From: Chthoniobacterales bacterium
Lineage (GTDB): Bacteria; Verrucomicrobiota; Verrucomicrobiia; Chthoniobacterales; UBA6821
NCBI GenBank assembly: GCA_044236545.1
Contig: JBIIGI010000003.1
Span: 7,709-71,708 of the forward strand
DNA: 64,000 nt
Reading direction: 5' to 3'
In this document: one piece after another, positions 11,234 through 56,182 of the stretch
How the letters are laid out: every line of letters begins with the position of its first letter
Position numbering within the stretch: the first letter of the stretch is position 1
Made by a program: the position numbers and the translations under genes
The notes under the pieces: model-generated
The model's input: only the letters and a program-made list of their open reading frames with translations
Told to the model about the DNA's origin: nothing
Databases searched by the model: none

Positions 11234-14149
11234 ATGACCGACGCTCAGGTCATCCGGATCAAGGGGGCGCGGCAGCACAACCTGCGCAACCTCGACGTTG
11301 AGATCCCGCGCAACAAGCTCGTGGTCATCACCGGGCCGAGCGGTTCGGGGAAGTCCTCGCTTGCCTTCGATACGCTCTTCGCCGAGGGGCAGCGTCGCTA
11401 TGTCGAAAGTCTCTCGGCATACGCACGGCAGTTTCTCGACCAGATGCAGAAGCCCGATGTGGATCACATCGAGGGACTCTCTCCCGCCATCGCCATCGAG
11501 CAGAGGATCGCCCCGCCGAATCCCCGCTCGACGATCGCCACGACGACCGAGATCTACGATTACCTCCGTGTCCTCTACTCCTCGGTCGGGGTGCCCCATG
11601 ATCCGAAGACGGGAGCCGCGGTGCGCCGCCAGTCGCCCCAGCAGATCGCGACCGAGATCCTTTCCTGGCCCGAAGGAACCCGCATGATGCTGCTGGCTCC
11701 GCTTGTCAGGAACGAGGCAGGTGAGTTCCGCGATGTCATCGATCGCGCCCGACGCGAGGGATTTGTGCGACTGAGGATCGATGGCGAGATCATCGATCTG
11801 GGGCGCCCGGAGCCGATCAAACTTCTCAAGACCAAGAAGCACACCATCGAGGCCGTGGTGGATCGTCTGGCACTTCGTCCCGAGGGCGAAGGGGAGGGAA
11901 TCCGTCAACGCCTTCTCGATTCGCTCGAGACCTCGCTGCGCTGGGGAAACAACATGATCACCGTTCTGCATCAGGCACCCGGTGCGGCACCCGACGCTTG
12001 GGTGGAGAGGCCCTTCTCCACCGATTTCTGCAATCCGGAGACCGGATTCACAATGCCTCGTCTGACTCCCCGGCACTTTTCCTTCAACAGCCATCTCGGC
12101 GCCTGTCCAGCCTGTCAGGGAATCGGCACGGAGCCGTTCTGTGATCCGGGCCTGCTCGTGGATCCCGAGATGACGCTCTCGAAGGGGGCGATCAGGCCGT
12201 GGCGGACTCCCGACAAGCGGATGGGGCAATACTATCAACTCGTTCTCGAAGCCCTCTGTGAGCAGACGGGAGCCGGTATCGATGTTCCTTTCCGCGACCT
12301 TCCCGAGGCATTCAAGCAGAAGCTTTTCCACGGAACCGGCGTGGAGTCGCTGGAGCTCGGCGGGACAAAAGGAAAAGGGGGGAGGGCGCCGCAGATCAGG
12401 CCGTTCGTGGGACTGGTGGCCATGGTGGAGAGGCAGATGGAGACCTCGGCCAGCGAGTTGAAGAAGAACCGTCTGAAGGCCTACTTCGCGCGGAAGGCCT
12501 GCGCGACCTGCGGCGGGGCGCGCCTGCGTCCCGAGATCCTCGGGGTGACGCTTGAGAGCTTTGTTGGGCCGGACAAGAGGGAATGGAATATCGAGGAGTT
12601 CTGTGCGCTTCCCGCCTCCCGCGCCTGCGAGGTGCTGGCGGGGTTGCAACTCTCGGCTGCGGATCGCAAGGTGACGATGGATCTCCTGCGGGAGATCGGC
12701 GCCAGGCTGGGGTTTCTGGTCGAGGTGGGGCTCGGCTATCTCACCCTCAACCGTGAAAGCGGGACGCTCTCCGGCGGCGAGGCGCAGCGCATCCGGCTTG
12801 CCACGCAGATCGGCTCCGGATTGGCAGGGGTGCTCTACGTGCTTGATGAACCGAGCATCGGCCTCCATCAGCGCGACAATGACCGCCTGCTGGGGACTCT
12901 CCGCGGACTCCGCGATCTCGGGAACTCGGTGGTCGTCGTCGAGCATGACGAGGAGACGATCCTGGCGGCCGACCATGTGCTCGACATGGGGCCCGGTGCG
13001 GGGCCGAGGGGTGGGGAGATCGTGGCGACCGGCACACCTGCCGAGATCCTGGCCAATCCTGCCAGCCTGACCGGGCAATTCCTCTCCGGCACGGCGAAGA
13101 TCTCGGTGCCCAGGATCCGTCATCGCCCCCCGGTGAAGGCCGCGCCGGGGCCGGGATGGCTCACCGTGACCGATGCCTCCGAGAACAATCTGAAGAACCT
13201 GACAGTCGGATTTCCCGTCGGTCTCTTCACGGTGGTGACGGGGGTTTCCGGAAGCGGGAAATCAACGCTGGTGAACGACATTCTTCACCGATCGCTTGCG
13301 CGCCAGTTCTACGGGGCGAAGGAGGCGCCGGGCGCCCATGGCCGCATTCTCGGGACAGAGGCCTTCGACAAGGTGGTGGTCATCGACCAGAGTCCGATCG
13401 GCCGCACGCCCCGCTCCAATCCCGCCACCTACTCCGGTGTCTTCGGACCGATCCGCGATCTCTTCAGCGGACTCCCCGCCGCCAAGGTGCGCGGATATGC
13501 CCCGGCCCGTTTCTCCTGCAACGTGAAAGGGGGGCGCTGTGAGCAGTGCGAGGGCGACGGGATGATCCGGATCGAGATGCACTTCCTCGCCGATGTCTTC
13601 GTGGAGTGCGAACTCTGCCGCGGGCGCCGATTCAATCGGGAGACCCTCGAGATCTCCTACAGGGGGAAGAACATCGCCGATGTGCTGGAGCTTTCGATCG
13701 ACGAGGCGGCGGGATTCTTCCGCTCCATCCCCGCCATCCACGGAAAGCTGGAGGTCCTGCAGGAGGTCGGTCTTGGCTACCTGAAGCTCGGCCAGTCGGC
13801 CACGACACTCTCCGGTGGGGAGGCCCAGCGCCTCAAACTCGCCTCCGAACTCTCCAAAAAAGCGACCGGCAGGACGCTCTACCTGCTCGACGAACCGACG
13901 ACGGGGCTTCATTTTGCCGACATTCAGAAACTGCTGGAAGTGCTCCTGAGGTTGCGCGACGGCGGAAATACCCTCATCGTCATCGAACACAATCTCGAAG
14001 TCATCAAATGCGCGGACTGGATCATCGACATGGGCCCGGAGGGAGGGGAAGGGGGCGGACAACTCGTGACATGCGGAACGCCCGACGAGGTGGCGGAGCA
14101 TTCCTCAAGCTATACGGGTCACTGGCTGGGGCGTGCCTTGCGGCGCTGA
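11234..14149 (+). CDS. uvrA: Excinuclease ABC subunit A
   Basis: 971 aa. Two ABC modules ([23 protein letters not shown]), LSGGEAQR signatures and CxxC zinc modules. Confidence 0.95.
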
Positions 14150-36672: not shown

Positions 36673-36693
36673 TGCCTTGTGGTGTAACGGTAG
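36673..36693 (+). repeat. attL: 21-bp copy of the 5' end of tRNA-Gln
   Basis: tgccttgtggtgtaacggtag is identical to 45367-45387. The sequences diverge immediately on both sides. Confidence 0.75.
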
Positions 36694-36767
36694 GACTATT
36701 CTGGGTTGTTTGGGATGCGCTTCTACTCTGTTAGAGTGTTTTTTTCTTCGGTAGAATGAAAGAGGTG

Positions 36768-36785
36768 TGGGGAACTATGGGGAAC
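36768..36785 (+). promoter_or_regulatory. Two TGGGGAAC repeats 10 bp apart, inside attL (candidate integrase arm-type sites)
   Basis: tggggaac at 36768-36775 and 36778-36785. The related pair ttttggggaag/ttttggggaac lies inside attR at 45312-45333. Confidence 0.4.
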
Positions 36786-36833
36786 AAGTCCTATTGCCTT
36801 TGATACTAGGGGATTCAACATTGATGAGTCTGC

Positions 36834-36869
36834 CAAAACAAAATGGGTGCCCTTGGGGGCACCCATTTT
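36834..36869 (-). terminator. Rho-independent terminator downstream of the integrase gene
   Basis: Stem atgggtgccc / gggcacccat with loop ttgg. On the minus strand it is followed by ttttgttttgg. Confidence 0.65.
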
Positions 36870-36891
36870 GCACAACACACACATTTACAGT

Positions 36892-37914
36892 TCAGAAAGG
36901 ATCTGGTGGTGGAGTGACACGAGACAGTGCCGCCTCCGAATCTTTGATGTTCAGGCGAGAGTAAATTTTGTGCACATCATCAGATGAGTGATTTACCAAC
37001 TGCATTGCCTCCAATGCAGTCAATCCCGCCCTGTGGCATCTAGTTATAAAGCTGACTCGGCATGAGTGTGAGGTGGCTTCGCAAACAGATTTCAAGACCT
37101 CATTGAATCTCTGATTGGATGACTTCTTGAACTCAGGAACGGAGTATCCCTCCTCCCATTTGAGACCTTGGAGGTACTCCACAAATCGTTCCTTCATTGG
37201 CACTGTGTAGAGTTTGCGAGGATCGTTTGCCTTCCTTTTGCTGTCCTCGATCTGGATAGTCTTGTTTACAAAGTCCACACGAGATTTGTGGATTCGTGCC
37301 TCATTGAAGCGACAACCCAAGTTGATCAAGATCTCAAAGACTGTACCCATCCATTCGTCCTTGGATTTTAGTGTTTCACGGATTTTTTGAATTTCATCAG
37401 AGGTAAGCTCTTTTTTTTGCTTTGCTGGCACAATAGGGAAACGAGCAAGGCTGATAACGTTCTTATCCAAGAACTCCCTTGCACAAGCCTCCCTCAAAAT
37501 GCCTTTGAAAAAGCCGATCTCAAGTCGTGCTGTGTTGTGTTTGACCTGCTGCTTTCTCCATTCAACGTACTCCATGACATGCTGGTACTTGAACTCCCTT
37601 GGGTGACGTATTTTTTTACCTTTCAACCACCCAGCGATGGTATCCCAAGCGATCTGGTAACGTTCTAGGGATCTAGGATTCTTGTAGTGGGATTGAAGGT
37701 GCATTGGTACCCATGCTGAGAAGTCACCACCATTTTGTGGGGAGACCGCTTGCTCTGCGGCGGTGCGTTTGGCGCATTCCTTGTGGGCTTTGATGGTGTC
37801 TTGATCGTTATCATGCCTCAATTTCAGGCACTCATCCTTCCAAATGCCCGTCTCCAAATCCCGGAAGCGAATATACCAGTATGGGGACCTTTTGACTTTT
37901 TTAAGCGATGCCAT
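36892..37914 (-). CDS. int: Tyrosine recombinase / phage-type integrase
   Basis: Start MASLKKVKRSPYWYIRF (typical integrase N-terminus). Catalytic elements GCRFNEA (Arg), HSCRVSF (HxxR) and VHKIYSR (Tyr). Confidence 0.85.
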   Translation of the reverse strand: MASLKKVKRSPYWYIRFRDLETGIWKDECLKLRHDNDQDTIKAHKECAKRTAAEQAVSPQNGGDFSAWVPMHLQSHYKNPRSLERYQIAWDTIAGWLKGKKIRHPREFKYQHVMEYVEWRKQQVKHNTARLEIGFFKGILREACAREFLDKNVISLARFPIVPAKQKKELTSDEIQKIRETLKSKDEWMGTVFEILINLGCRFNEARIHKSRVDFVNKTIQIEDSKRKANDPRKLYTVPMKERFVEYLQGLKWEEGYSVPEFKKSSNQRFNEVLKSVCEATSHSCRVSFITRCHRAGLTALEAMQLVNHSSDDVHKIYSRLNIKDSEAALSRVTPPPDPF

Positions 37915-38158
37915 GATCAGCCCCCCCAGAGATTGATGCCATGAATTGCCGAACCCAACGGACGGTAGTTTTTCGCCCAATGAACCTGCATCCACGCCTT
38001 TTCCAAAAATTGATCGTTTCCTTTCGAACTCCGATGATGTCGGCAATGTTCTGGGGGAATTCGAGTCGATCCAAGTCCCAAGCAAGCTTCTGATTGGGAT
38101 TTTGAACAATGAAGCCCTGATCATCCAAACCTTTAGATATTCTTATCAGATTATTCAT
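37901..38158 (-). CDS. Excisionase/AlpA-like helix-turn-helix protein
   Basis: 85 aa, overlaps the int start by 14 nt. HTH-like segment NIADIIGVRKETINFWKRRG. Confidence 0.5.
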   Translation of the reverse strand: MNNLIRISKGLDDQGFIVQNPNQKLAWDLDRLEFPQNIADIIGVRKETINFWKRRGCRFIGRKTTVRWVRQFMASISGGADHGIA

Positions 38159-38165
38159 GGCTATC

Positions 38166-38178
38166 TCTATTTAAATAG
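38166..38178. promoter_or_regulatory. Palindromic candidate operator TCTATTTAAATAG just upstream of the xis-like start
   Basis: The same 13-mer recurs at 41442-41454, upstream of the other leftward operon. Confidence 0.4.
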
Positions 38179-38829
38179 CCCTAACTAGTTTTCCTTGTTT
38201 AATAACAAGAATCCGTAAGATATAAAAGCAATGGGATCTTTTAATACCTTCTCTGTGGAATTTGATTAACTGCGCTTCTCGATTCATGATGGCTGAATCA
38301 TAGCAATTATTTCCGGTAAAGCCGAGACTATAGTTCAATAAACAAGACCCATCAGTGTAATTTTCTTATTTCAATTAGGATTTAATCGTACAGGACGATT
38401 CTTATTGACTTTACCAGAAATCTCTTATAGCATAGCGACACTGATTGCTCATCCATGAGCGATTGGCTACATACCTAAAAACACCCAGATTCGAGGGAAA
38501 AGTTGCTATTTTAACGATAAAAGTAGTCGTTTTAAGCGATTTTCTGAGATCCTAGAGGTGGGTTTACTCTGAAGGATATTCTAATCTTACGGAATAAAGA
38601 CCACCGGGCGTGATTGGGCTTTGTATTAGACTCAAGTTCACTCTCCCAATCACAAAAATTATTGAAATGAACAAGCCAGTTGTAAGTAAGACTGTTATAC
38701 ACGGAATCAGGCAACTCACTTGCAGAACCTAATGAAATGTATTTCTCACATACCTAAAACGCAGCTATAGGCTGTAGTCTACAGTATTGATAATATATAA
38801 AACACTTCAATCATGATATAATATTCAAA

Positions 38830-39657
38830 ATGAAACCTTCTGTAGACATACTTGATCACATTCATCGCAATAAGGATATTATATCCATCTGTGATGGAGT
38901 CCCAATTTACCAAGTAGGGAGGTATCTCTATTATGGTCAAGATCGGGTGACTTCAGAGTTCATCTCTTTTATCAAGATTCCTTTCTCTTATGTCTCTCAT
39001 ATCAGATTTAATCCCAAGAGGTACTTAAACTCTAATTCTAGAAGGCTTAGAAGTGCATTTGTAAATCTTCTGCTTAAAGAGATAAACGCATACATAATAG
39101 GATCTTATCCCAAAATTATTTCTGGGAAACGTACCATTAGATGTATTTTAAAGACCGAGTATGGATCAATTGATGATCAGGCTCATGTCCACATCCTTTG
39201 GCTGATTGATGAAAGAGTCAGAGATCTGGTGTCTGAAGCTGTCTTTGAGTTTTTTTCCAATCATATGGATAAGACTTCCGGACCGATACAGTCGATTGTC
39301 ACCCAACCGATTCAGAATGTAGGCGAACAAATCTCATATTTCTGTAAAGTTCAAGGAACAAGAGATCCTGATTATCAGTACTTTAATGGGTTTAAGAGGA
39401 TCTTGAAAAAGTATCAAACCAGTGCTGCCGTATCGCTCCCCGATCATCTAGCATACCAAAACCAATGTCATTCTTTACCAGCTTTCCTTCAAAGGACTGT
39501 TCTACTCCCAGGGATTACCAGCGGCTTTTCAAAACCAAAGACATCCCATTCTTGGGACTTCTCCTTTCAAAGCCCTGTTCTGAGAATGTTCATGAGACCT
39601 TCGATTCCCCTTTGGGATACTACTCTTACAGCTTCGAGAAACCAGCTGACGGAATGA
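38830..39657 (+). CDS. Hypothetical protein with HUH-like (HVHILW) and YxxK-like (YFCK) motifs; possible HUH endonuclease/Rep
   Basis: 275 aa, island-like composition. QAHVHILWLID is followed about 50 aa later by EQISYFCKVQG. No other family signature recognised. Confidence 0.5.
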   Translation: MKPSVDILDHIHRNKDIISICDGVPIYQVGRYLYYGQDRVTSEFISFIKIPFSYVSHIRFNPKRYLNSNSRRLRSAFVNLLLKEINAYIIGSYPKIISGKRTIRCILKTEYGSIDDQAHVHILWLIDERVRDLVSEAVFEFFSNHMDKTSGPIQSIVTQPIQNVGEQISYFCKVQGTRDPDYQYFNGFKRILKKYQTSAAVSLPDHLAYQNQCHSLPAFLQRTVLLPGITSGFSKPKTSHSWDFSFQSPVLRMFMRPSIPLWDTTLTASRNQLTE

Positions 39658-40109
39658 AGATTACCTCTCAGATCAGTCAGAAGACTCTGAGGAGGCTCTT
39701 CAGAGAGAAGTTCTTCGGATTTAGAGAGGCTTTAACCCAAACAGGCATCGGAAACTGTGGGTACGAACTGAGGATCAAGGAACGCCCTTTACGCCTTCCA
39801 AATTCTCGGATGGGTAAAGACCTAGAAAGGTTCGGAAAAACGATTGTACGCCCATTTACGGCGCAGGAAGACCCATTCCTGATGAAGCTCAAGGACGTTC
39901 CCCTGTACTCATGGCTTGATGACAGTGAAGAAGAGCGTGTGAACCTGCCTTTCTGCCCCTTAGATGGTCCTGGAATATCCCTTCTTAAAGCATCCATACG
40001 CACACCAAGAACCCATTGGAACGGATGCGGAAGGGAATGGGGATTCAGGATTTGCGGTGACTGCCTTGGAGTTCTTGGATCCCTTCCTGTCTATTTGAAG
40101 CAATCCTGA
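39654..40109 (+). CDS. Hypothetical protein, Cys/His-rich C-terminus (possible zinc ribbon)
   Basis: ATG 39654 overlaps the upstream stop (ATGA). C-terminal FCPLDG...HWNGCGREWGFRICGDC. Confidence 0.5.
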   Translation: MKITSQISQKTLRRLFREKFFGFREALTQTGIGNCGYELRIKERPLRLPNSRMGKDLERFGKTIVRPFTAQEDPFLMKLKDVPLYSWLDDSEEERVNLPFCPLDGPGISLLKASIRTPRTHWNGCGREWGFRICGDCLGVLGSLPVYLKQS

Positions 40110-40624
40110 AAAGCCTTCTCTTCTTGGGAGTCGAGTAGAAGTCCGTATTCCCTGAGATTTTCCAAGGGCCAACGCTGACCTGCAATTTTCTCCACAGGAA
40201 TATACTCGTTCATCAGTTCTGCAATCTGGTAGTAATCGGTCACAAAAGTTGGCTCATGGATCTGATTCTGTCCTCTGCGAGTTGCCTTGTCTTCAAGAGC
40301 AGCCCAATCAGTCTCTTTGAGCTTCGTAGGTGAATCCAACTGAACCCAGCTAAGTGGACGCACCTTTCTTTCGTCTGCCATCAGGAGCAACAGAAGGCTT
40401 CCATCGAACAATGAGGTTCTGGCATGGACTGAGAGAACGGTCTTGGAAGATCTGTTCATCAACATATCCCACACCATCAGGATCGAATTCGGTTTTTGAT
40501 GTCCGAGCCCAATCAAATCAATCTCTAAACGATCTGGTTGCTCCTCCAGAGCCTTTAACACCTTTTCGTAGAGTTCTTTAACTCCATCATCAGCAAGGTT
40601 TAAGACCAAACGGTAAGTCTTCAT
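40091..40624 (-). CDS. Hypothetical protein, degenerate ClpP/S14-like fold (tentative)
   Basis: 177 aa. IDLIGLGHQKPNSILMVWDMLMNRSSKTVLSVHARTSLFDGSLLLLLMADERKVRP aligns by eye with ClpP IYLYINSPGG...GQAASMGAFLL..G..GKR. The C-terminal LREYGLLLD resembles ClpP A.EYGL.D. The catalytic His position is not conserved. Confidence 0.45.
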   Translation of the reverse strand: MKTYRLVLNLADDGVKELYEKVLKALEEQPDRLEIDLIGLGHQKPNSILMVWDMLMNRSSKTVLSVHARTSLFDGSLLLLLMADERKVRPLSWVQLDSPTKLKETDWAALEDKATRRGQNQIHEPTFVTDYYQIAELMNEYIPVEKIAGQRWPLENLREYGLLLDSQEEKAFQDCFK

Positions 40625-40875
40625 TGGATGGGCTTATCCAAAAGTCGATTCACGTTCAAAAACTCTACCAAGGCATCAAACAATAAGTCGGGAATCACAT
40701 CTGAATCGACATCGACTTCAAAGTACTGCTCAAAGGCTTCAACTTCAGAGATTGTTGCCTCTACCTCGAAGGTTTGGGACTCGTTTTCAAAGAAGCAGAC
40801 TTCAGGACATCCATTGGAACGAGCATCATCAGTGTAAAGGAGTTTCCCAGCCTCCTTGGTGGTGAATTTGATCAT
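40621..40875 (-). CDS. Small, strongly acidic hypothetical protein
   Basis: 84 aa with 19 Asp/Glu against 6 Lys/Arg by my count. ATGA-type 4-nt overlap with the downstream gene. Confidence 0.5.
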   Translation of the reverse strand: MIKFTTKEAGKLLYTDDARSNGCPEVCFFENESQTFEVEATISEVEAFEQYFEVDVDSDVIPDLLFDALVEFLNVNRLLDKPIQ

Positions 40876-40880
40876 CAGGG

Positions 40881-41366
40881 TTATCCCTTGAGGGAATACT
40901 GAGTGGTTTTCTTGCTACCCGTGATCTCAAGGAAGTCTTTGCAGTTTTTCTGGAAGGCTATGAACCTCGGGCGAGAGATATCCAAAGCGGCAAAAATCTC
41001 TTTGCTTCCTGCCTTCCTGCCACCAGCTAGCAATGTCGAAAGCTTCTGTTTCAACACCTCATCAGTAACAGTGGGATGGAATTTACGGATGCCCCGATGT
41101 TTGGATGCGGTCGGAGTGCTTTCCACAGTGTGACCAAGCTCTTTTAACTTATCATGTATCTCCTTTAACTCTGCTTTGAGTTTAACCTGAAGACCTTCGA
41201 TCTGTTGATTATACTGGGTCTTGATATGATTTTCTCTGATCAAAAGCTGTTCAATTGCCTTCTGCTTCATCTGCTTAAACTCATCAAAGAAGTTTTTATC
41301 CAAATTAGAGTCAGGGGATTTAATATCAGAAGTCTTTGGCTCAGAAGACTTGAATGGATTAATCAT
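40881..41366 (-). CDS. Hypothetical coiled-coil protein with a possible C-terminal winged-helix
   Basis: 161 aa. The central region (KQMKQKAIEQLLIRENHIKTQYNQQIEGLQVKLKAELKEIHDKLKEL) has heptad-like character. First gene of a three-gene leftward operon. Confidence 0.5.
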   Translation of the reverse strand: MINPFKSSEPKTSDIKSPDSNLDKNFFDEFKQMKQKAIEQLLIRENHIKTQYNQQIEGLQVKLKAELKEIHDKLKELGHTVESTPTASKHRGIRKFHPTVTDEVLKQKLSTLLAGGRKAGSKEIFAALDISRPRFIAFQKNCKDFLEITGSKKTTQYSLKG

Positions 41367-41441
41367 TTGACCATTAAATCAAAAATAACTGGTAAACGCA
41401 AGAACGAAATTCAATATGAATGCTATTCAATAAAACGGCAA

Positions 41442-41455
41442 TCTATTTAAATAGA
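41442..41455. promoter_or_regulatory. Perfect 14-bp palindrome TCTATTTAAATAGA within a putative promoter of the 41366-40091 operon
   Basis: On the minus strand it lies between TTGAAA and TAGATT (16-nt spacer), about 75-88 nt upstream of the ATG at 41366. Confidence 0.4.
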
Positions 41456-41590
41456 GGTTATTTTCAAAATCCTGTTTTATTACAAGATTTGATATTATCC
41501 TTACCCATCTGTTAATTTTTCTTACTAGCAGGAGGCGATGACTGGTCGATGGTATTGCATATTCGATCTTACGGGTAAGTAACTACCGGC

Positions 41591-41866
41591 ATGAAAAGAA
41601 AGAAACGCAAACCGAACTCCCTATATGCAAATGCATCCCTAACCATCAGACTCCCGTACAGTGCAAAAGCTCTTATCCGAGACTTCTCAGAGACCAAGAA
41701 ACGCACACTAACCAAGACGGTCTTGGATGCTATCGACAGGTATCATCCACTCAGAGCCTTCCATGACAGGAAACTGGATGAGATGGCTAGAATTTGCGGA
41801 GAACTGCCTCCTGAAGTAGAAAAAGAGACCACTGCCCTATTTCCCTTCATGCTGGAGAGCGAGTAG
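41591..41866 (+). CDS. Hypothetical protein, possible ribbon-helix-helix DNA-binding protein
   Basis: 91 aa. SLTIRLPYSAKALIRDFSETKKRTLTKTVLDAI has the strand-helix-helix pattern of CopG/Arc-type proteins. Confidence 0.4.
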   Translation: MKRKKRKPNSLYANASLTIRLPYSAKALIRDFSETKKRTLTKTVLDAIDRYHPLRAFHDRKLDEMARICGELPPEVEKETTALFPFMLESE

Positions 41867-42019
41867 TCGATACAGGACACCTCAAGACTCGCTACAAAAT
41901 TCTTGGAGAGTGATATTCATGCAAGCGATTACATGATCTTTCTACACCAAACGGCTTTCAGTGCAATCACTACGTGCAGTCATGCTGCACCGTCTGATGA
42001 TTGTCATATGACTTGAGAG

Positions 42020-42577
42020 TCAAGCAGCCTTCGCCTTCAAATCCCTGTAAAACGTAGCTCTAGAAATTTTCAACGTCTGGCAAATCTGATTGATGCTCAT
42101 TTTGCCGTCCTTGTAGAGAGTGGATGCGCTGGCGATCCGATTCTCATTCACAGACTTGGGCCTCCCTCCCAGCCGCCCTCGTGCCCTGCTTGCCAATAGA
42201 CCTGCCTGTGTCCTTTCTCGAATGAGGCTTCTCTCGAATTCTGCCATTGCTCCAAATATTTGGAACACGAGCATCCCTGCCGAGTTTGTTGTGTCCACTG
42301 GCTGAGTCAGGCAACGAAATCCGATGCCTCTATCCTTGAGCGTGTTGATCGTCTCGATCAGGTCTCGAAGACTCCTTCCAACCCGATCCAACTTCCAACA
42401 AACGATCACATCACCACTTCGGGCAAACTCGATTGCTTCCCTCAATCCCTTTCGATCTGATTTCGCACCAGAGGCAATATCTTGGAATATGCGCTCACAC
42501 CCAGCCTTCTTCAGTTCATCCTCTTGTAAGTAAAGGAATTGATCCGAGCACGAAACTCTCATGTACCCAATGTTCAC
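42020..42577 (-). CDS. Serine recombinase (resolvase/invertase family)
   Basis: 185 aa. N-terminal IGYMRVSCSDQ (catalytic Ser), VCWKLDRVGRS, and a C-terminal HTH (SINQICQTLKISRATFYR). Confidence 0.9.
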   Translation of the reverse strand: MNIGYMRVSCSDQFLYLQEDELKKAGCERIFQDIASGAKSDRKGLREAIEFARSGDVIVCWKLDRVGRSLRDLIETINTLKDRGIGFRCLTQPVDTTNSAGMLVFQIFGAMAEFERSLIRERTQAGLLASRARGRLGGRPKSVNENRIASASTLYKDGKMSINQICQTLKISRATFYRDLKAKAA

Positions 42578-42744
42578 TTGGGAAGATTACCAAGAATATC
42601 TCATAAAGTCAACTAAAAAACATAAAATGAGACATAGAAATATGAGACGAGTTTATGAATCATATTTTATGCGTTTCTAGAGTATCAACAGAAAAAATCT
42701 CTTTGAATCATCAAGGCTACGTTTTTTGAGACAGTTCAAGGCAG

Positions 42745-42781
42745 AAAAAAACCCATCCCCAGTATAAGAGGATGGGTTTTT
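42745..42781. terminator. Bidirectional rho-independent terminator
   Basis: aaaaaaa-cccatcc-(11 nt)-ggatggg-ttttt. Lies immediately downstream of the 62-aa gene on the minus strand. Confidence 0.65.
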
Positions 42782-42799
42782 GAGAAGTTATCTTTTAGA

Positions 42800-42988
42800 T
42801 TACCTTTGATACTTGAACTCACCATCGGAACCATACGTTATGGATGCGCCAACGCTGTCCTTAACCGTAACAGTTGAAGATGTGTATCCGATCAACTCTG
42901 TTCCATCCTTTTGAAACTTATAATTTCCATTTTCATCATAAACAATCACTGAATTCCCATCTTGCTTTGCAGATCCTATTGCGCTCAT
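42800..42988 (-). CDS. Small hypothetical protein (62 aa, beta-rich)
   Basis: Followed by a strong terminator and divergent from the XRE gene. No family recognised. Confidence 0.45.
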   Translation of the reverse strand: MSAIGSAKQDGNSVIVYDENGNYKFQKDGTELIGYTSSTVTVKDSVGASITYGSDGEFKYQR

Positions 42989-43158
42989 GTAGTTATTATG
43001 TTAGTTTTGCTCTAGTGTTTTAAAAGCAAGTAGTTACCTTGCCTTTAATTGGATGTATGTCAATTTCTTGACCACGCAATCGTAATGCATGGCAAGAGCC
43101 ACGCAAGCAAGAATATCCCGAAAATCGGATAATCCTGTTTCTGGGTTAATTCTAGCCC

Positions 43159-43416
43159 TTGAAAAAGCGGCTATCTAAATCCCTCTACTCAGACCGCTGG
43201 GAGCAGTTGCTCAAAATCCTGAAACGCCTTCGTGTTGAAAAAGGGCTGACTCAAGTGCAGCTTGCAGCCCAGCTTGATCGCCCACAGTCGCTCATTGCCA
43301 AGATTGAATCTGGAGAGCGCAAGTTGGATGTCTGTCAGTTCCTCGACTACTTGGAAGCTCTGGACGCAAGCGCAGAGGAAGTAGTTCGAGAGATTGAGCA
43401 GACTGTGAAGGAGTGA
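43159..43416 (+). CDS. XRE-family helix-turn-helix transcriptional regulator
   Basis: LRVEKGLTQVQLAAQLDRPQSLIAKIESGERKLDV is a canonical HTH_3/XRE motif. The track start is a TTG codon. Confidence 0.7.
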   Translation: MKKRLSKSLYSDRWEQLLKILKRLRVEKGLTQVQLAAQLDRPQSLIAKIESGERKLDVCQFLDYLEALDASAEEVVREIEQTVKE

Positions 43417-43426
43417 AGAGCGATCC

Positions 43427-44272
43427 CTAAAAATCAAGGAACCACTGCTCATCAACCATCACTTCTTGAACAACTCTCTCCTTCACGGAAATGCCTAGTC
43501 GAAAGTCTTTGAGCATCTGAACCAATTCACTCCCATCAATCAGATCCAGTGGAGTAGCCCCGTCCCGAAGTGCTTCTAACCTAGCTTCTCTGGTGAAGGT
43601 ACCTGTTGTGATAATGATCCCTTTATCAGCCCTGCCATCCATTGCTCCTCTGAAATCTCTAATCACAGCATTGGAGACACTTCCTTTGTACCGTTTGCAC
43701 TGGAAGAAGACGTGAAACGATAGGATTGCACCCATTTTCAAAATCCCCTTGCCATCAATACCTCCATCTCCAGAGCGTCCAGTAACTTCAACTTGAACGA
43801 AACCTGCCTCCCTGAGGACCCGTTGGCATAATCTCTCGAAAGCCTCTGGTTTGATATTCTTAACAGCCTCAAGAACTTCCGTTTCCCATTTTCTACCATC
43901 ACCATTGATATCGGTCTTTGGCTGCTCAGGTTTTTTGGCATTTTTACGGAGGGCATAGCTTTCAGACCTGTTTTTCCGTTTAACCTCATCCTTGTTAACC
44001 TGCTTGGTCTTTTGACCTTCAGAGGTCAAAGCCCATACTCCTCTCGCGGAATTCTCAATCAACCCAAACTGTTTCAAGTAGGATCTTGCCCAAGCAAGAT
44101 TGTACGAAAACTTTGGTCTATTGCCTTCGTGGATTACCTCCAGATCTTTGTCTGTCAACTTGAGGTCAGCGGCAACTTTCTCTTCAAGCTCTGATATGCT
44201 GGCTGAACCACCAAGAGCGTGAAGTGCCTTTAAAAGCGGGTTGATGAGTTCGTCATATTTTGGAACAGCCAT
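43427..44272 (-). CDS. mrr: Mrr-type restriction endonuclease (Mrr_N winged helix + Mrr catalytic domain)
   Basis: N-terminal PKYDELINPLLKALHALGGSASISELEEKV and catalytic region GRSGDGGIDGKG...FQCKRY. Confidence 0.85.
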   Translation of the reverse strand: MAVPKYDELINPLLKALHALGGSASISELEEKVAADLKLTDKDLEVIHEGNRPKFSYNLAWARSYLKQFGLIENSARGVWALTSEGQKTKQVNKDEVKRKNRSESYALRKNAKKPEQPKTDINGDGRKWETEVLEAVKNIKPEAFERLCQRVLREAGFVQVEVTGRSGDGGIDGKGILKMGAILSFHVFFQCKRYKGSVSNAVIRDFRGAMDGRADKGIIITTGTFTREARLEALRDGATPLDLIDGSELVQMLKDFRLGISVKERVVQEVMVDEQWFLDF

Positions 44273-44392
44273 AAATCATTCAATAATGGGCGATGGTGAA
44301 AACTCTGGTGATACGGAGTTCTGAAGGATGATGCTAGGCAATGCAACCTTCTTATCTTGATGGATCATCAGGAAAGGCAGCATTCTGTGGAT

Positions 44393-45241
44393 ATGGCTAC
44401 TTGGATCTTTCAAGGGAATCCCAATCTTTTTGATATAGATGACTACCTCACGAGATACCAACAGTTGGTGTACTGGAGAACTCCCACCCAGAGAAATTCG
44501 ATTGCCCTTGGTGATCGTGCCTTCATGTGGAGGTCAGGCGATTCCAGCGGAATTGTTGCTTCGGGCGTTGTCGTAGAGCTTCCTGCCATTGAATCACAAC
44601 TCAAGCATCCTGAAGCTTTAGGAGCCGATCTCTGGATTGCAGATGAGTTGGCAGCAAGAAGGACAGATCCAAACGCTCCCAAGGTGGGAATATCTCTGGA
44701 TTCTGTTCGTTTGAACGAAGAGGAAGGGATGATCTCTCGCTCTCTTGTCAAAGAAGACCCAATTCTTTCTCAGAACACGATCATCAGGCAGCCAAACGCT
44801 ACGGTCTTTTCCGTTACTACAGATCAGGCATCAAGACTTGAAGAGGTGTGGGGAGGCTCGGTGGCGAAACTCAACGAGTCCTTTGAAACGTCAGCGATAG
44901 AAGGTGATAAAAAGGTCTACTCCCATCGAAAGAGGGAGAGATCCAGATTCCTTGTCGGAAAGAAATTGGAACAGGCAAGAAGGGCAGGTGCAATTCGGTG
45001 TGAAGTCTGCCAAATCACCGAGGAAGGTGTGTATCCACAGCCTTTTGCAGCACGGATTTTTGAGGTTCATCACTTGATGCCTCTTTCTCAGGTCGAAACT
45101 CCAAGGATGACCACTCTCGATGACCTTGCGGTGGTGTGCGCAAACTGCCACAGAGCAATCCATGCCACGACTCAGGTGGAGGAAAACTTTCTGGCGCTGA
45201 AGCGATCTTTTGGGAAAAGCAATCTCACGGAATCAGGTTGA
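44393..45241 (+). CDS. Putative PUA/EVE-like domain fused to an HNH endonuclease
   Basis: The N-terminus WIFQGNPNLFDIDDYL...ALGDRAFMWRSGDSSGIVASGVVVE looks EVE/PUA-like by eye. C-terminal HNH: CEVCQ...FEVHHLMPLS...CANCHRAIH. Alternative start at 44357/44360. Confidence 0.65.
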   Translation: MATWIFQGNPNLFDIDDYLTRYQQLVYWRTPTQRNSIALGDRAFMWRSGDSSGIVASGVVVELPAIESQLKHPEALGADLWIADELAARRTDPNAPKVGISLDSVRLNEEEGMISRSLVKEDPILSQNTIIRQPNATVFSVTTDQASRLEEVWGGSVAKLNESFETSAIEGDKKVYSHRKRERSRFLVGKKLEQARRAGAIRCEVCQITEEGVYPQPFAARIFEVHHLMPLSQVETPRMTTLDDLAVVCANCHRAIHATTQVEENFLALKRSFGKSNLTESG

Positions 45242-45311
45242 TCCAATTGGATTGTGTTGGCATAATCACTCTCCCTTCGACCTAGCTTGAAGGGCATGTT
45301 CATCAGCCCCC

Positions 45312-45333
45312 TTTTGGGGAAGTTTTGGGGAAC
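45312..45333 (+). promoter_or_regulatory. Two TTTTGGGGAA(G/C) repeats 11 bp apart, inside attR (candidate arm-type sites)
   Basis: ttttggggaag at 45312-45322 and ttttggggaac at 45323-45333, in the same orientation as the TGGGGAAC pair at 36768-36785. Confidence 0.4.
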
Positions 45334-45366
45334 AGCCCGTAGAGCCAGTGTTTAAGAGGTACAAAT

Positions 45367-45440
45367 TGCCTTGTGGTGTAACGGTAGCACAGCAGACTCT
45401 GAATCTGCTTGTCATGGTTCAAATCCATGCGAGGCAGCCA
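45367..45440 (+). tRNA. tRNA-Gln (anticodon CTG), CCA encoded
   Basis: A 74-nt cloverleaf folded by hand: acceptor tgccttg/cgaggca, D arm gtgt-aacggta-gcac, anticodon arm gcaga-ctCTGaa-tctgc, T arm catgg-ttcaaat-ccatg, discriminator g, then CCA. The first 21 nt are attR. Confidence 0.9.
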
Positions 45441-53503: not shown

Positions 53504-54509
53504 TCAGTCGGAAATTCCTGAAAGATCCCGTTCTAGAAGTTGTGATGCTAACAAATCCAAATCTATCGCAGGTCGAACTAAAATCTTATCAGGATTATCT
53601 TCAAGAATATCTTTTACTTGAGGGGGTGTATTAGGATTTTTAATGATGGCTTTGCGTAATTCACAATCATCTTCTTTAGCAAGGAGTGCCAGAACATGAG
53701 AAGGTGTCTTTGTGCTTTCAGCCAAACTAATACGAACCAACTTACTTTTATCATCAGAAATACGCATTATAATATCTGTAGAAACATTTGGATTTTCAAT
53801 GATAGCAACACGCAATTCGCAATCGTCTTCTTCTGCAAGGATCGCTAGCAACGTAGATGGAGTATTTGGATTTAAGGCCACGACAAATCGGACATGACTG
53901 TCTTCATCTTTTGTGAGGCATGATAACATTTCTAGGGAGGAAGAAGGAAGCTTTGCTATGCATGCACGTACATCCCGATCTTTATCATTAATTAGCCTTT
54001 TGATTGTCTCCAAATTGGTATTTGGATTATTTACAATCGCTTCTCTAACTATAGAAGCTTCATTGTTAGCCAGTCGGTCTAATACACTAGGGTGTGTGTT
54101 TGTGTTTTCAGCTACTAGAGCGCGAACTTCAAAATCAAGAATACCTTCATCTAAATCTCTAATTCTAGTAAGCCGATCTAGCACATCTTGGCTGGTATTA
54201 GGATGCGCGGCTATCGCTTGATGAATCCCAGTATTAAACCAATCTACAGAACCAGCTAGTAGCGCCAAAGCACTACTAGGTAGTGTTTGGGTTGCGTGCT
54301 ACTTTGTAAAGAACATAAGGATAGGAATCTTCTGCAAGTTCTAACAAGGCATCACTAGGAGTATTCAAATTACTAGCAACCAGCTCTCTCACATCGCTAT
54401 TCTTATCGCCCGAAAGACACCGCAGTATTTCGGCTGGAGTATTAAGGGATGCTCCCAGAGATCTTTTTTCTTCAAGGCTTCTTTCCGAAGCGCCTTTAGG
54501 GTTTCTCAT
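53504..54509 (-). pseudogene. NPNTP-repeat (leucine-rich-repeat-variant / HEAT-like) protein gene interrupted by a 1-nt frameshift
   Basis: About 11 units of ~26 aa (NPNTPxxxLxxLAxDxDxxVRxxVAx). Track ORFs 54276-54509 and 53504-54268 join into ...VARNPNT-PSSALALLAGS... if the single base near 54281 is skipped. Confidence 0.6.
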
Positions 54510-55505: not shown

Positions 55506-55536
55506 CGCCCTGTGCTGCCGGGGGTAAGTGTGGGGC

Positions 55537-55857
55537 ATGAATCCGGTGGTCAATGATCTGCTCTTCCAGAATCGGGAGGCCCTGAAGGAGTTATGCCATG
55601 CCCAGAAGGTGCGTGAACTGGATATTTTTGGTTCGGCCACCAGGGCCGACTTTGATCCTTCGCGGAGCGATCTCGATTTTCTCGTTGAGTTTCAGGATCC
55701 GGATCGTCCCGGTATAGCCGACAGGTTCCTTGGCCTTGCCGAGGGGCTTGAGCGGATCTTCCAACGCAATGTGGATCTCGTGACCCGGAGGTCGCTGAAG
55801 AATCCGGTCTTCATCGGGGCGGTCAACCGCTCCAAGCAGGTCGTCTATGCAGGATGA
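55537..55857 (+). CDS. mntA: MNT-type nucleotidyltransferase antitoxin
   Basis: Nucleotidyltransferase motif IFGSATRADFDPSRSDLDFLV. Overlaps the downstream HepT gene by 11 nt. Confidence 0.8.
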   Translation: MNPVVNDLLFQNREALKELCHAQKVRELDIFGSATRADFDPSRSDLDFLVEFQDPDRPGIADRFLGLAEGLERIFQRNVDLVTRRSLKNPVFIGAVNRSKQVVYAG

Positions 55858-56182
55858 GGCGCTCAAGCTCCTGACGGATATCCGTGAGGCATTGGAGGAG
55901 GTCGACGGCTTCACTGCCGGGATTGATCTTCCTGCCTATGAAGCGGATCCAATGAGGAGAGCGGCAGTGGAGCGCAAGTTTGAGATTATCGGTGAGGCCT
56001 GTAATAGGCTTTCCCTTCGTGATGAAGGGGTCTTCGAGAAAATTACCCACGCCCCGCAGATCATTGGTTTCCGCAATCGTTGGATCCACGGATACGATGC
56101 GGTGGATCATGCGATCGTCTGGGATGTCGTGAAGAACAAGCTCCCCCTGCTCAAAGCAGAGGTGGATTCCTTGCTTGGATAA
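55847..56182 (+). CDS. hepT: HepT (DUF86/HEPN) toxin
   Basis: HEPN Rx4HxY motif RNRWIHGY. 111 aa. Confidence 0.85.
   Translation: MQDEALKLLTDIREALEEVDGFTAGIDLPAYEADPMRRAAVERKFEIIGEACNRLSLRDEGVFEKITHAPQIIGFRNRWIHGYDAVDHAIVWDVVKNKLPLLKAEVDSLLG

What the first reader, a model, noticed from the sequence alone, without database searches (positions are those of the whole stretch)
40091..41366. Three-gene operon of unknown function: coiled-coil/wHTH-like, highly acidic 84-aa, and degenerate ClpP-like proteins
The genes are tightly packed on the minus strand (5-nt gap, then a 4-nt overlap) behind a promoter carrying the shared palindrome. The last protein aligns by eye with the ClpP core and its C-terminal EYGL.D helix, but it lacks the catalytic His. 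It may be a non-proteolytic Clp-fold scaffold or a Ser-only variant. The middle protein has 19 acidic against 6 basic residues in 84 aa, a composition typical of DNA-mimic anti-restriction proteins. The first has a long heptad region and a basic C-terminus, like small nucleoid or regulator proteins. I know of no described system with this combination. Hypotheses include an anti-defence module, a defence module or a satellite-type capsid-interference module.
Basis: inference. Interest (0 to 1): 0.65.

Follow-up and report, generated by a model that had tools for sequence, protein, structure and literature searches.

The report
Control operon of a restriction-shuttling integrative element
The three genes are real and conserved, and they belong to the fixed backbone of a small mobile DNA element that inserts into tRNA genes of freshwater bacteria and carries interchangeable restriction enzymes; they most likely form a DNA-binding regulator with a catalytically degenerate ClpP-shaped partner, not a defence or anti-defence weapon.

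Summary
Three minus-strand genes are packed as described: A (40881-41366), B (40621-40875) and C (40091-40624). All are under purifying selection. A is a long helix, a disordered linker and a C-terminal winged helix. C has a ClpP/SppA fold without a conserved catalytic triad. B is acidic (19 D/E against 6 K/R).

The context changes the interpretation. The genes lie in an 8.7-kb low-GC element bounded by a 24-nt repeat of the 5' end of tRNA-Gln. The element encodes a tyrosine integrase, an HUH-motif Rep-like protein, a ribbon-helix-helix-like protein and a serine resolvase, and it carries restriction cargo (Mrr, EVE-HNH).

In relatives the cargo is swapped for various type II restriction-modification systems, while A-(B)-C keeps its place next to Rep and the integrase. 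One relative was also found as its excised circle. B is optional: it is absent in two lineages and truncated in one locus. C sometimes occurs without A. Two C-family members are fused to an HTH domain.

Best reading: a backbone control module, with A as operator-binding regulator, C as its non-proteolytic partner and B as accessory. The biochemical function is still unknown. No described family matches.

The parts
36673..36696 (+). Left attachment-site repeat: a 24-nt copy of the 5' end of tRNA-Gln, marking the left end of the element
   Evidence: Direct repeat D3, 23 of 24 identical to 45367-45390
36892..38124 (-). Tyrosine integrase (410 aa)
   Evidence: PF00589 E=2.5e-9; conserved in relatives
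38167..38178 (.). Palindrome CTATTTAAATAG, 43 nt upstream of the integrase start
   Evidence: 2 copies in the window, 0 expected; conserved at this position in L001, L002 and L022
38830..39657 (+). Rep-like protein (275 aa) with invariant HUH (H119, H121) and YxxK (Y170, K173) motifs; putative rolling-circle initiator
   Evidence: Alignment of 5 orthologues; Rep genes at the equivalent position in L020, L024 and L025 hit PF23343 REP_ORF2-G2P. No Pfam hit for this copy itself
39465..40109 (+). Conserved 214-aa ORF of unknown function; overlaps the Rep 3' end in another frame and converges on C (19-nt overlap)
   Evidence: tblastn 64-79% identity over the full length in relatives; no Pfam hit
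40091..40624 (-). C: 177-aa ClpP/SppA-fold protein without a conserved catalytic triad
40621..40875 (-). B: 84-aa acidic protein, an optional member of the operon
   Evidence: absent in L009 and L010-13
40881..41366 (-). A: 161-aa protein with a long helix (20-76), a disordered linker and a C-terminal winged helix (102-159)
41443..41454 (.). Palindrome CTATTTAAATAG in the A-operon promoter region (putative operator)
   Evidence: overlaps the spacer and -10 of a promoter-like site at 41467-41440
41591..41866 (+). Divergent 91-aa ribbon-helix-helix-like protein
   Evidence: Sequence pattern read by eye; no Pfam hit. A homologue (similarity read by eye, no alignment run) lies divergent from C in L026; present in L001, L002 and L022
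42020..42577 (-). Small serine recombinase (resolvase) at the edge of the cargo slot
   Evidence: PF00239 E=1e-42 and PF02796; 93-95% identical in relatives with different cargo
43427..44272 (-). Cargo: Mrr-type type IV restriction endonuclease
   Evidence: PF04471 and PF14338; PADLOC mREase_IV
44357..45241 (+). Cargo: EVE-HNH nuclease
   Evidence: PF01878 and PF01844
45367..45440 (+). tRNA-Gln(ctg); its first 24 nt form the right attachment-site repeat

Best explanation
A-B-C is the conserved control operon of an 8.7-kb integrative element. The element inserts into tRNA-Gln, probably replicates by a rolling-circle (HUH) Rep, and shuttles interchangeable restriction cargo. It resembles the tycheposons described in marine bacteria.

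Shown here:
- the element and its boundaries;
- the backbone position of the operon;
- excision to a circle in a relative;
- the predicted folds of A and C.

Inferred:
- A is a dimeric DNA-binding regulator. Its flexibly tethered winged helices bind the inverted half-sites CTATTT/AAATAG over its own promoter and upstream of the integrase, coupling operon expression to the integration/excision decision.
- C is a ClpP-fold protein that has lost the Ser-His-Asp triad. It acts as a non-proteolytic protein partner (co-regulator, sensor or oligomerisation module) of DNA-binding proteins: A in trans here, and an HTH in cis in fused family members.
- B is a dispensable acidic accessory, translationally coupled to C, that modulates A or C.
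For: Element and mobility:
- A low-GC island (0.40-0.45 against 0.62 in the host) is bounded by a 24-nt tRNA-Gln repeat.
- An identical 8733-bp stand-alone contig exists (L001).
- The relative L012 is a circular contig with a 141-nt terminal overlap. It equals the element integrated in L010 between 97-bp repeats at tRNA-Gly.
- All relatives checked lie at tRNA or tmRNA genes.

Backbone, not cargo:
- A-(B)-C keeps its place beside Rep and the integrase while the cargo varies: Mrr+EVE-HNH, MTase+MvaI/BcnI+Vsr, MTase+NotI-like, HindVP, Eco29kI, or unknown genes.
- The triad persists at C 41%, B 38% and A 28% identity in L024/L025.

A as regulator:
- The wHTH fold.
- The palindrome is shared by the two promoter regions and conserved in relatives.
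- In the L005/L009 lineage the half-sites are kept but are 16 bp further apart, which fits a flexible linker.
- The predicted third (recognition) helix of the wHTH is nearly invariant.

C as partner of DNA-binding proteins:
- P0088 and P0090 are HTH(LuxR/GerE)+C fusions.
- C lies beside an RHH-like protein in L026 and beside a LuxR-type regulator in L016-19.

C as non-catalytic:
- No Ser, His or Lys is invariant in 72 family members. The topological equivalents of the triad are S76 (Ser in 30/72), D97 (His not among the four commonest residues) and G149 (Asp in 24/72).
Against: - No direct evidence exists for an A-C or B-C interaction or for A binding the palindrome.
- The divergent RHH-like protein could be the palindrome binder. 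However, L010-13 keep the A-side palindrome without that RHH-like gene.
- No shared palindrome was found between the two promoter regions in the L024, L005 or L009 lineages.
- C occurs without A in L020 and L026, so its function cannot depend on A alone.
- S/T at position 70 (62/72) and S/C at position 71 (46/72) leave room for a non-canonical nucleophile.
- The residue mapping onto ClpP rests on secondary-structure order, not on a superposition I could inspect.
Confidence: 0.45

Rival explanations
1. Repressor-plus-protease switch (ImmR/ImmA-like or a split LexA-like). C is an active but non-canonical serine or cysteine peptidase. It cleaves A in its disordered linker or conserved N-terminal peptide, separating the dimerisation helix from the wHTH and derepressing integrase and replication. 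B inhibits or times C.
For: The ClpP/SppA fold belongs to a peptidase clan. S/T70 is present in 62/72 members and S/C71 in 46/72, within a conserved SSLxDG motif. A has a 24-residue disordered linker and an invariant disordered N-terminus. The HTH+C fusions have the same layout as LexA or CI, with an N-terminal HTH and a C-terminal peptidase domain. B and C are translationally coupled.
Against: The family has no conserved general base: no invariant His or Lys, and the positions equivalent to the ClpP His and Asp are variable. Ten of 72 members have Pro and 10 have Asn at position 71. No sequence match to any peptidase family.
Confidence: 0.15
2. Anti-defence establishment module. B is a DNA-mimic anti-restriction protein and C is a decoy ClpP that interferes with host Clp proteolysis. 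Both are expressed on entry into a new host under the control of A.
For: B has 19 acidic against 6 basic residues in 84 aa, pI 4.05, which is the size and charge range of known DNA mimics (my own knowledge). The element moves between hosts and would face restriction. That B is dispensable fits an accessory role.
Against: B matches no ArdA, Ocr or other Pfam or PDB family. Its invariant residues are mostly non-acidic (RSNG, SDVI, FLN.NR). The operon is backbone with a fixed position, behind an autoregulated-looking promoter shared with the integrase. No member was found in phage, plasmid or IMG/VR collections.
Confidence: 0.12
3. Addiction, exclusion or defence module of the omega-epsilon-zeta type: A as regulator, B as acidic antitoxin and C as toxin or effector.
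For: The gene order regulator / small acidic protein / larger protein, with tight coupling, mirrors tripartite toxin-antitoxin operons (my own knowledge of omega-epsilon-zeta).
Against: C stays intact and under strong purifying selection (dN/dS 0.045-0.074) in lineages that have cleanly lost B (L009, L010-13), and it occurs alone in L026. No PADLOC hit. Defence genes occupy a different, variable slot.
Confidence: 0.08
4. Satellite-type capsid-interference module. C derives from a ClpP-like prohead protease or scaffold and redirects a helper phage's capsid assembly.
For: Foldseek against viral models also hits phage ClpP-like and head-maturation proteases. The size and layout of the element resemble small phage satellites, and some tycheposons are PICI-like (bioRxiv 10.1101/2020.12.28.424599).
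Against: The element has no capsid, terminase or packaging genes. No relatives were found in IMG/VR or phage genomes. No PHROG hit. Some family members sit in a chromosomal, non-mobile context (L016-19) or are fused to an HTH.
Confidence: 0.03

Closest known systems
ClpP (peptidase S14) and SppA (S49), ClpP/crotonase superfamily
   Same: The predicted fold of C matches in full topological order, including the C-terminal 'EYGL' helix. Foldseek probability 1.0, TM 0.55-0.65.
   Different: No detectable sequence similarity. The Ser-His-Asp triad and the Ser-Lys dyad are not conserved. Different conserved motifs appear instead: GxGxxxPD, SSLxDG, GDxRxIR, DY, YLPVxE. Found as a mobile-element backbone gene and in HTH fusions.
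ClpR-type inactive ClpP paralogues (cyanobacteria and plastids)
   Same: A ClpP-fold protein lacking the catalytic triad that would act structurally rather than catalytically (analogy from my own knowledge).
   Different: ClpR is clearly homologous in sequence to ClpP and assembles with it. C is not detectably similar in sequence, and its partners are unknown.
ImmR/ImmA of ICEBs1, and LexA/CI-type self-cleaving repressors
   Same: A DNA-binding repressor and a peptidase-fold partner are encoded together, or fused, next to the integration genes of a mobile element.
   Different: ImmA is a metalloprotease and LexA carries an S24 domain. C has a ClpP fold and no conserved catalytic residues. Cleavage was not tested.
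Rok/sRok and H-NS-type proteins
   Same: A has the same architecture: an N-terminal oligomerising helix, a flexible linker and a C-terminal DNA-binding domain (winged helix in Rok). It is encoded on AT-rich foreign DNA in a GC-rich host.
   Different: No sequence match. The best structural matches are ArsR/SmtB-type wHTH domains, not Rok. A discrete palindrome suggests site-specific binding.
Tycheposons (Hackl et al., bioRxiv 10.1101/2020.12.28.424599)
   Same: Shared features: tyrosine integrase, tRNA/tmRNA targets with partial-tRNA repeats, a replication module, a small serine recombinase, a modular variable cargo slot and 'conserved unknown' backbone genes.
   Different: Different host (probably Verrucomicrobiota, Chthoniobacterales-like). 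HUH Rep rather than primase/helicase in most members. The cargo is almost exclusively restriction systems. The A-B-C operon does not appear in the preprint's main text, where a search for 'ClpP' found nothing. Integrase phylogeny was not tested.
ArdA, Ocr and other DNA-mimic anti-restriction proteins
   Same: B is small and strongly acidic.
   Different: No homology. Conservation is not centred on the acidic residues. B sits inside a regulator operon.

Membership tests
ClpP, peptidase S14 (PF00574) | ClpP/crotonase alpha/beta fold with handle region | tested here: met
   AF2 pLDDT 95. Foldseek against PDB and BFVD is dominated by ClpP and SppA, probability 1.0.
ClpP, peptidase S14 (PF00574) | Ser-His-Asp catalytic triad | tested here: not met
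   The topological equivalents are S76, D97 and G149 in the window protein. In 72 relatives Ser is present in 30, His is not among the four commonest residues, and Asp is present in 24. The mapping uses secondary-structure order only.
ClpP, peptidase S14 (PF00574) | Significant sequence match to the family profile | tested here: not met
   No PF00574 hit for the protein or for any of 72 relatives. hhalign and Smith-Waterman against E. coli ClpP are not significant.
ClpP, peptidase S14 (PF00574) | Heptameric rings that dock ClpX, ClpA or ClpC | not testable with these tools
   No multimer prediction was available.
SppA, peptidase S49 | Ser-Lys catalytic dyad | tested here: not met
   No conserved Lys anywhere in the family alignment, although SppA (4kwb) is the top Foldseek hit.
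Winged-helix (ArsR/SmtB/MarR-like) DNA-binding proteins | H1-(S1)-H2-H3-S2-wing-S3 fold | tested here: met
   A residues 102-159, pLDDT about 90. Matches HlyU, CzrA, SmtB and SqrR at about 2 A rmsd over about 60 residues.
Winged-helix (ArsR/SmtB/MarR-like) DNA-binding proteins | Sequence membership in a named wHTH family | tested here: not met
   No Pfam or NCBIfam hit above noise. The PDB profile search found only coiled-coil noise.
DNA-mimic anti-restriction proteins (ArdA, Ocr) | Homology or structural mimicry of B-form DNA | tested here: not met
   No Pfam or PDB sequence match for B or its family.
DNA-mimic anti-restriction proteins (ArdA, Ocr) | Strong net negative charge in a small protein | tested here: met
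   19 D/E against 6 K/R, pI 4.05.
Tripartite toxin-antitoxin (omega-epsilon-zeta type) | Antitoxin always accompanies an intact toxin | tested here: not met
   B is cleanly absent in L009 and L010-13 while C remains intact and constrained.
Known anti-phage defence systems (PADLOC-DB) | Match to a defence-protein model | tested here: not met
   No credible hit for A, B or C. The one hit for A (DrmMII, E=2e-4) covers only residues 30-83 of the long helix. The neighbouring cargo (Mrr) does hit.
Tycheposon-like integrative elements | Tyrosine integrase; tRNA/tmRNA target with partial-tRNA flanking repeats; excision to a circle | tested here: met
Tycheposon-like integrative elements | Own replication module plus a variable cargo module | tested here: met
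   HUH and YxxK motifs. PF23343 or DUF5906 in relatives. Cargo swapping.
Tycheposon-like integrative elements | Integrase falls in the tycheposon tyrosine-recombinase clade | not tested
   No reference integrase sequences were at hand.

The most novel reading that the evidence does not exclude
A previously undescribed family of catalytically dead ClpP-fold proteins serves as the protein-sensing or oligomerising subunit of transcription regulators. It acts in trans with the wHTH protein A here and is fused to an HTH elsewhere. It controls integration, excision and replication of a widespread family of tRNA-targeting elements that shuttle restriction systems among freshwater Verrucomicrobiota. 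This would be a new regulatory use of the ClpP fold.
Probability: 0.25. Interest if true: 0.7.

Novelty: new variant of a known kind. Interest (0 to 1): 0.5.

Why it matters
- **The element family.** It defines a family of small integrative elements whose cargo slot is filled almost exclusively with restriction enzymes. This gives a concrete vehicle for horizontal spread of restriction systems in an understudied phylum.
- **The conserved core.** It identifies backbone genes that have no annotation anywhere.
- **The ClpP fold.** If the ClpP-fold protein is a non-proteolytic regulator partner, that extends the known uses of one of the best-studied protease folds. It also gives a handle on how such elements decide between integration and excision.
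- **Annotation.** C-family genes found beside integrases should not be labelled as proteases or as defence genes.

Tried and rejected
**Family and collection searches with no result**
- Pfam, NCBIfam, PHROGs and PADLOC scans of A, B and C gave nothing credible.
- PDB sequence-profile searches for the A, B and C families gave only noise.
- tblastn of A (plasmids only), B and C (phages and plasmids) found no match.
- IMG/VR had no relative of C.
- GTDB genomes held only one relative, a Chthoniobacterales MAG.

**Attempts to link C to ClpP by sequence**
The by-eye alignment therefore cannot be used as evidence.

**Other negative results**
- A search for a palindrome shared by the two promoter regions in the L024, L005, L009 and L026 lineages found none.
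- Rfam found only the tRNA in the island.
- Literature searches for ClpP-like proteins in defence or mobile elements found nothing relevant.

**Readings rejected**
- Toxin-antitoxin, because B-less elements keep an intact C.
- Defence cargo, because the operon is invariant backbone.
- Prophage or inovirus, because there are no structural or morphogenesis genes.
Full report
**1. The observation**

A is 40881-41366 (161 aa), B is 40621-40875 (84 aa) and C is 40091-40624 (177 aa), all on the minus strand. The A-B gap is 5 nt and B and C share a 4-nt ATGA overlap.

They are genuine genes. Against five to seven independent orthologous loci, dN/dS is 0.08-0.15 for A, 0.11-0.19 for B and 0.04-0.08 for C. 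B has 19 D/E against 6 K/R and a pI of 4.05.

The palindrome CTATTTAAATAG occurs exactly twice in the 64-kb window, with none expected from shuffles.
- One copy lies 77 nt upstream of A and overlaps the spacer and -10 of a sigma-70-like site.
- The other lies 43 nt upstream of the integrase start.

**2. Folds**

*Protein C.* A word-index search found only five close clusters. An exhaustive HMMER scan found 96 representatives. With a 72-sequence alignment, AlphaFold2 gave a pLDDT of 95. Foldseek returned B. subtilis SppA and dozens of ClpP chains (probability 1.0, TM 0.55-0.65, E about 1e-4), and phage ClpP/S49-like proteins in BFVD. So the ClpP-fold claim holds.

It holds only at fold level. 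Pfam CLP_protease is not hit by C or by any of the 72 relatives. hhalign and Smith-Waterman against ClpP are at noise.

By order of secondary-structure elements, the triad positions correspond to S76, D97 and G149. Across the family these are Ser in 30/72, His not among the four commonest residues, and Asp in 24/72. No Ser, His or Lys is invariant. The conserved residues form other motifs: GxGxxxPD, SSLxDG, GDxRxIR, E124, DY, YLPVxE and an ExGLL motif (EYGLL in the window protein).

*Protein A.* AF2 (pLDDT 81) gives one long helix (20-76), a disordered linker (77-100) and a winged helix (102-159). The winged helix superposes on HlyU, CzrA, SmtB and SqrR at about 2 A. A single-register heptad test is weak, so 'coiled coil' remains plausible but unproven.

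*Protein B.* It has no match anywhere.

**3. What surrounds the operon**

The genes lie in a low-GC island (0.40-0.45) in a 0.62-GC genome. The island is bounded by a 24-nt direct repeat of the 5' end of tRNA-Gln (36673-36696 and 45367-45390). That makes an 8,694-bp element. It contains, in order:
- a tyrosine integrase;
- a 275-aa protein with invariant HUH and YxxK motifs, so a putative rolling-circle Rep;
- a conserved 214-aa ORF;
- C, B and A;
- a divergent RHH-like 91-aa gene;
- a serine resolvase;
- Mrr and EVE-HNH nucleases.

An identical 8,733-bp contig exists on its own in another data set.

**4. Relatives**

Contigs encoding close homologues keep the same backbone (A, with or without B, then C, the 214-aa ORF, Rep and the integrase). 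The cargo next to the resolvase is swapped:
- MTase+MvaI/BcnI+Vsr in L002;
- MTase+NotI-like in L003;
- MTase+MvaI/BcnI in L005-8;
- unknown genes in L010-13.

At C 41% identity (L024, L025) the triad is still there: A-like (hhalign 83%, wHTH region), B-like (38% identity, E 1e-11) and C-like. It sits beside a PF23343 Rep and an integrase, with HindVP or Eco29kI restriction-modification cargo.

L012 is a circular contig with a 141-nt terminal overlap. It corresponds exactly to the element integrated in L010 between 97-bp repeats at tRNA-Gly. These elements therefore excise.

Other members sit at tRNA-Gln, tRNA-Arg, tRNA-Lys or tmRNA. The window, L005, L009 and L026 occupy the same chromosomal locus, between purM-purF and tRNA-Gln-methyltransferase-RlpA. 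L009 is a Chthoniobacterales MAG, so the host is probably a related verrucomicrobium.

**5. The three genes are not an obligate unit**

- B is cleanly absent in L009 and L010-13, where A is followed directly by C. It is truncated in L006.
- B is nevertheless ancient: B-C pairs are seen at C 45% (L015) and 41% (L024) identity.
- C occurs without A or B in L026, divergent from an RHH-like homologue and upstream of the integrase. It also occurs alone in L020 beside a PF23343 Rep, and in a chromosomal context next to a LuxR-type regulator (L016-19).
- Two family members (P0088, P0090) are fusions of an N-terminal LuxR/GerE-type HTH with the C domain.

**6. Interpretation**

The invariant position of the operon, against a changing cargo slot, makes it backbone. 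This argues against a defence module: the defence genes are the cargo, and PADLOC finds nothing credible in A, B or C.

The toxin-antitoxin reading fails because C stays intact and constrained where B is lost.

The satellite or capsid reading has no support. The element has no structural genes, and there is no presence in IMG/VR or phage genomes.

The best-supported model is regulatory.
- A binds the CTATTT/AAATAG half-sites at its own promoter and at the integrase promoter. The half-sites are conserved in relatives, and in the L005/L009 lineage they lie 16 bp further apart. That fits winged helices on flexible tethers and a nearly invariant recognition helix.
- C, a ClpP-fold protein without the triad, is a partner of DNA-binding proteins. 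The HTH fusions and its recurrent adjacency to regulators point the same way.
- B is an accessory modulator.

The DNA-binding, the interaction and the non-catalytic status are all inferred, not shown. A protease-switch variant (ImmA/ImmR-like or split LexA-like) remains a serious rival because S/T70 and S/C71 are common in the family.

**7. Comparison and novelty**

The element resembles tycheposons. It shares the tyrosine integrase, tRNA/tmRNA targets, replication module, small serine recombinase, variable cargo and conserved unknown genes (bioRxiv 10.1101/2020.12.28.424599). It differs in host, in mostly having an HUH Rep, and in carrying restriction-only cargo.

C belongs to the ClpP/crotonase superfamily by fold but fails the sequence and catalytic tests for S14 and S49. 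A is a wHTH protein with an H-NS/Rok-like layout but no homology to them. B is an orphan.

I rate this a new variant of a known kind. It is a mobile-element control module built partly from a new, apparently non-catalytic ClpP-fold family. Interest is moderate (0.5). It is real, conserved and unannotated, with a testable and unusual use of the ClpP fold, but its function is not established.

Noticed in passing
window 36673-45390: The low-GC island is a complete 8.7-kb integrative element bounded by 24-nt repeats of the 5' (not 3') end of tRNA-Gln. The intact tRNA therefore reads out of element DNA, and the element supplies its upstream region.
   Followed up: yes
L012 (whole); L010:1913-2009 and 13314-13410: L012 is the excised circular form (11,401 bp) of the element integrated in L010, L011 and L013. 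The att repeat is 97 bp and covers the 5' 46 nt of tRNA-Gly(gcc).
   Followed up: yes
window 42020-45241 and the cargo slots of L002, L003, L005, L024, L025, L026: The cargo slot next to the small serine resolvase almost always holds restriction systems: Mrr+EVE-HNH, MvaI/BcnI, NotI-like, HindVP or Eco29kI with Dcm-type methylases, and once with Vsr. The resolvase stays 93-95% identical across different cargos, which suggests resolvase-linked cassette exchange.
   Followed up: partly
window 38830-40109: The Rep-like orf275 (HUH and YxxK motifs) and the conserved orf214 overlap by about 190 nt in different frames. Both frames are conserved in relatives. In L004 and L009 the Rep-like gene is replaced by a 378-aa protein while orf214 is kept.
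   Followed up: partly
P0088, P0090; P0093, P0060 (C-family members): P0088 and P0090 are HTH(LuxR/GerE)+C-domain fusions. P0093 and P0060 carry a shared unknown C-terminal extension (RxWFIxxNxxGxxTLxGG...).
   Followed up: partly
window 40881-41366 (A residues 1-11): A has a nearly invariant but predicted-disordered N-terminal peptide, MINPFKSSEPK. It could be a short linear motif such as a partner-binding site or a degron.
   Followed up: no
L010:8390-9640 and L020:329-1573: A 414-416-aa GYF_2/DUF2628 membrane protein follows C in the B-less L010-13 elements. It recurs in the distantly related L020 element.
   Followed up: no
window 55528-56182: A nucleotidyltransferase (PF01909) and HepT-like (PF01934) toxin-antitoxin pair with overlapping genes, inside a second GC dip (54-56 kb).
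   Followed up: partly
window 53504-54509: A leucine-rich-repeat-variant (LRV) protein of 254 aa, followed by a 77-aa fragment with the same NPNT repeats, in lower-GC DNA next to metH.
   Followed up: no
window 38125-38830: A 700-bp non-coding AT-rich stretch between the integrase and Rep, with several short inverted repeats (for example 38309-38321 / 38409-38421, containing TTTACCAG, which also occurs in the conserved A leader). It is a candidate origin or nick region.
   Followed up: no
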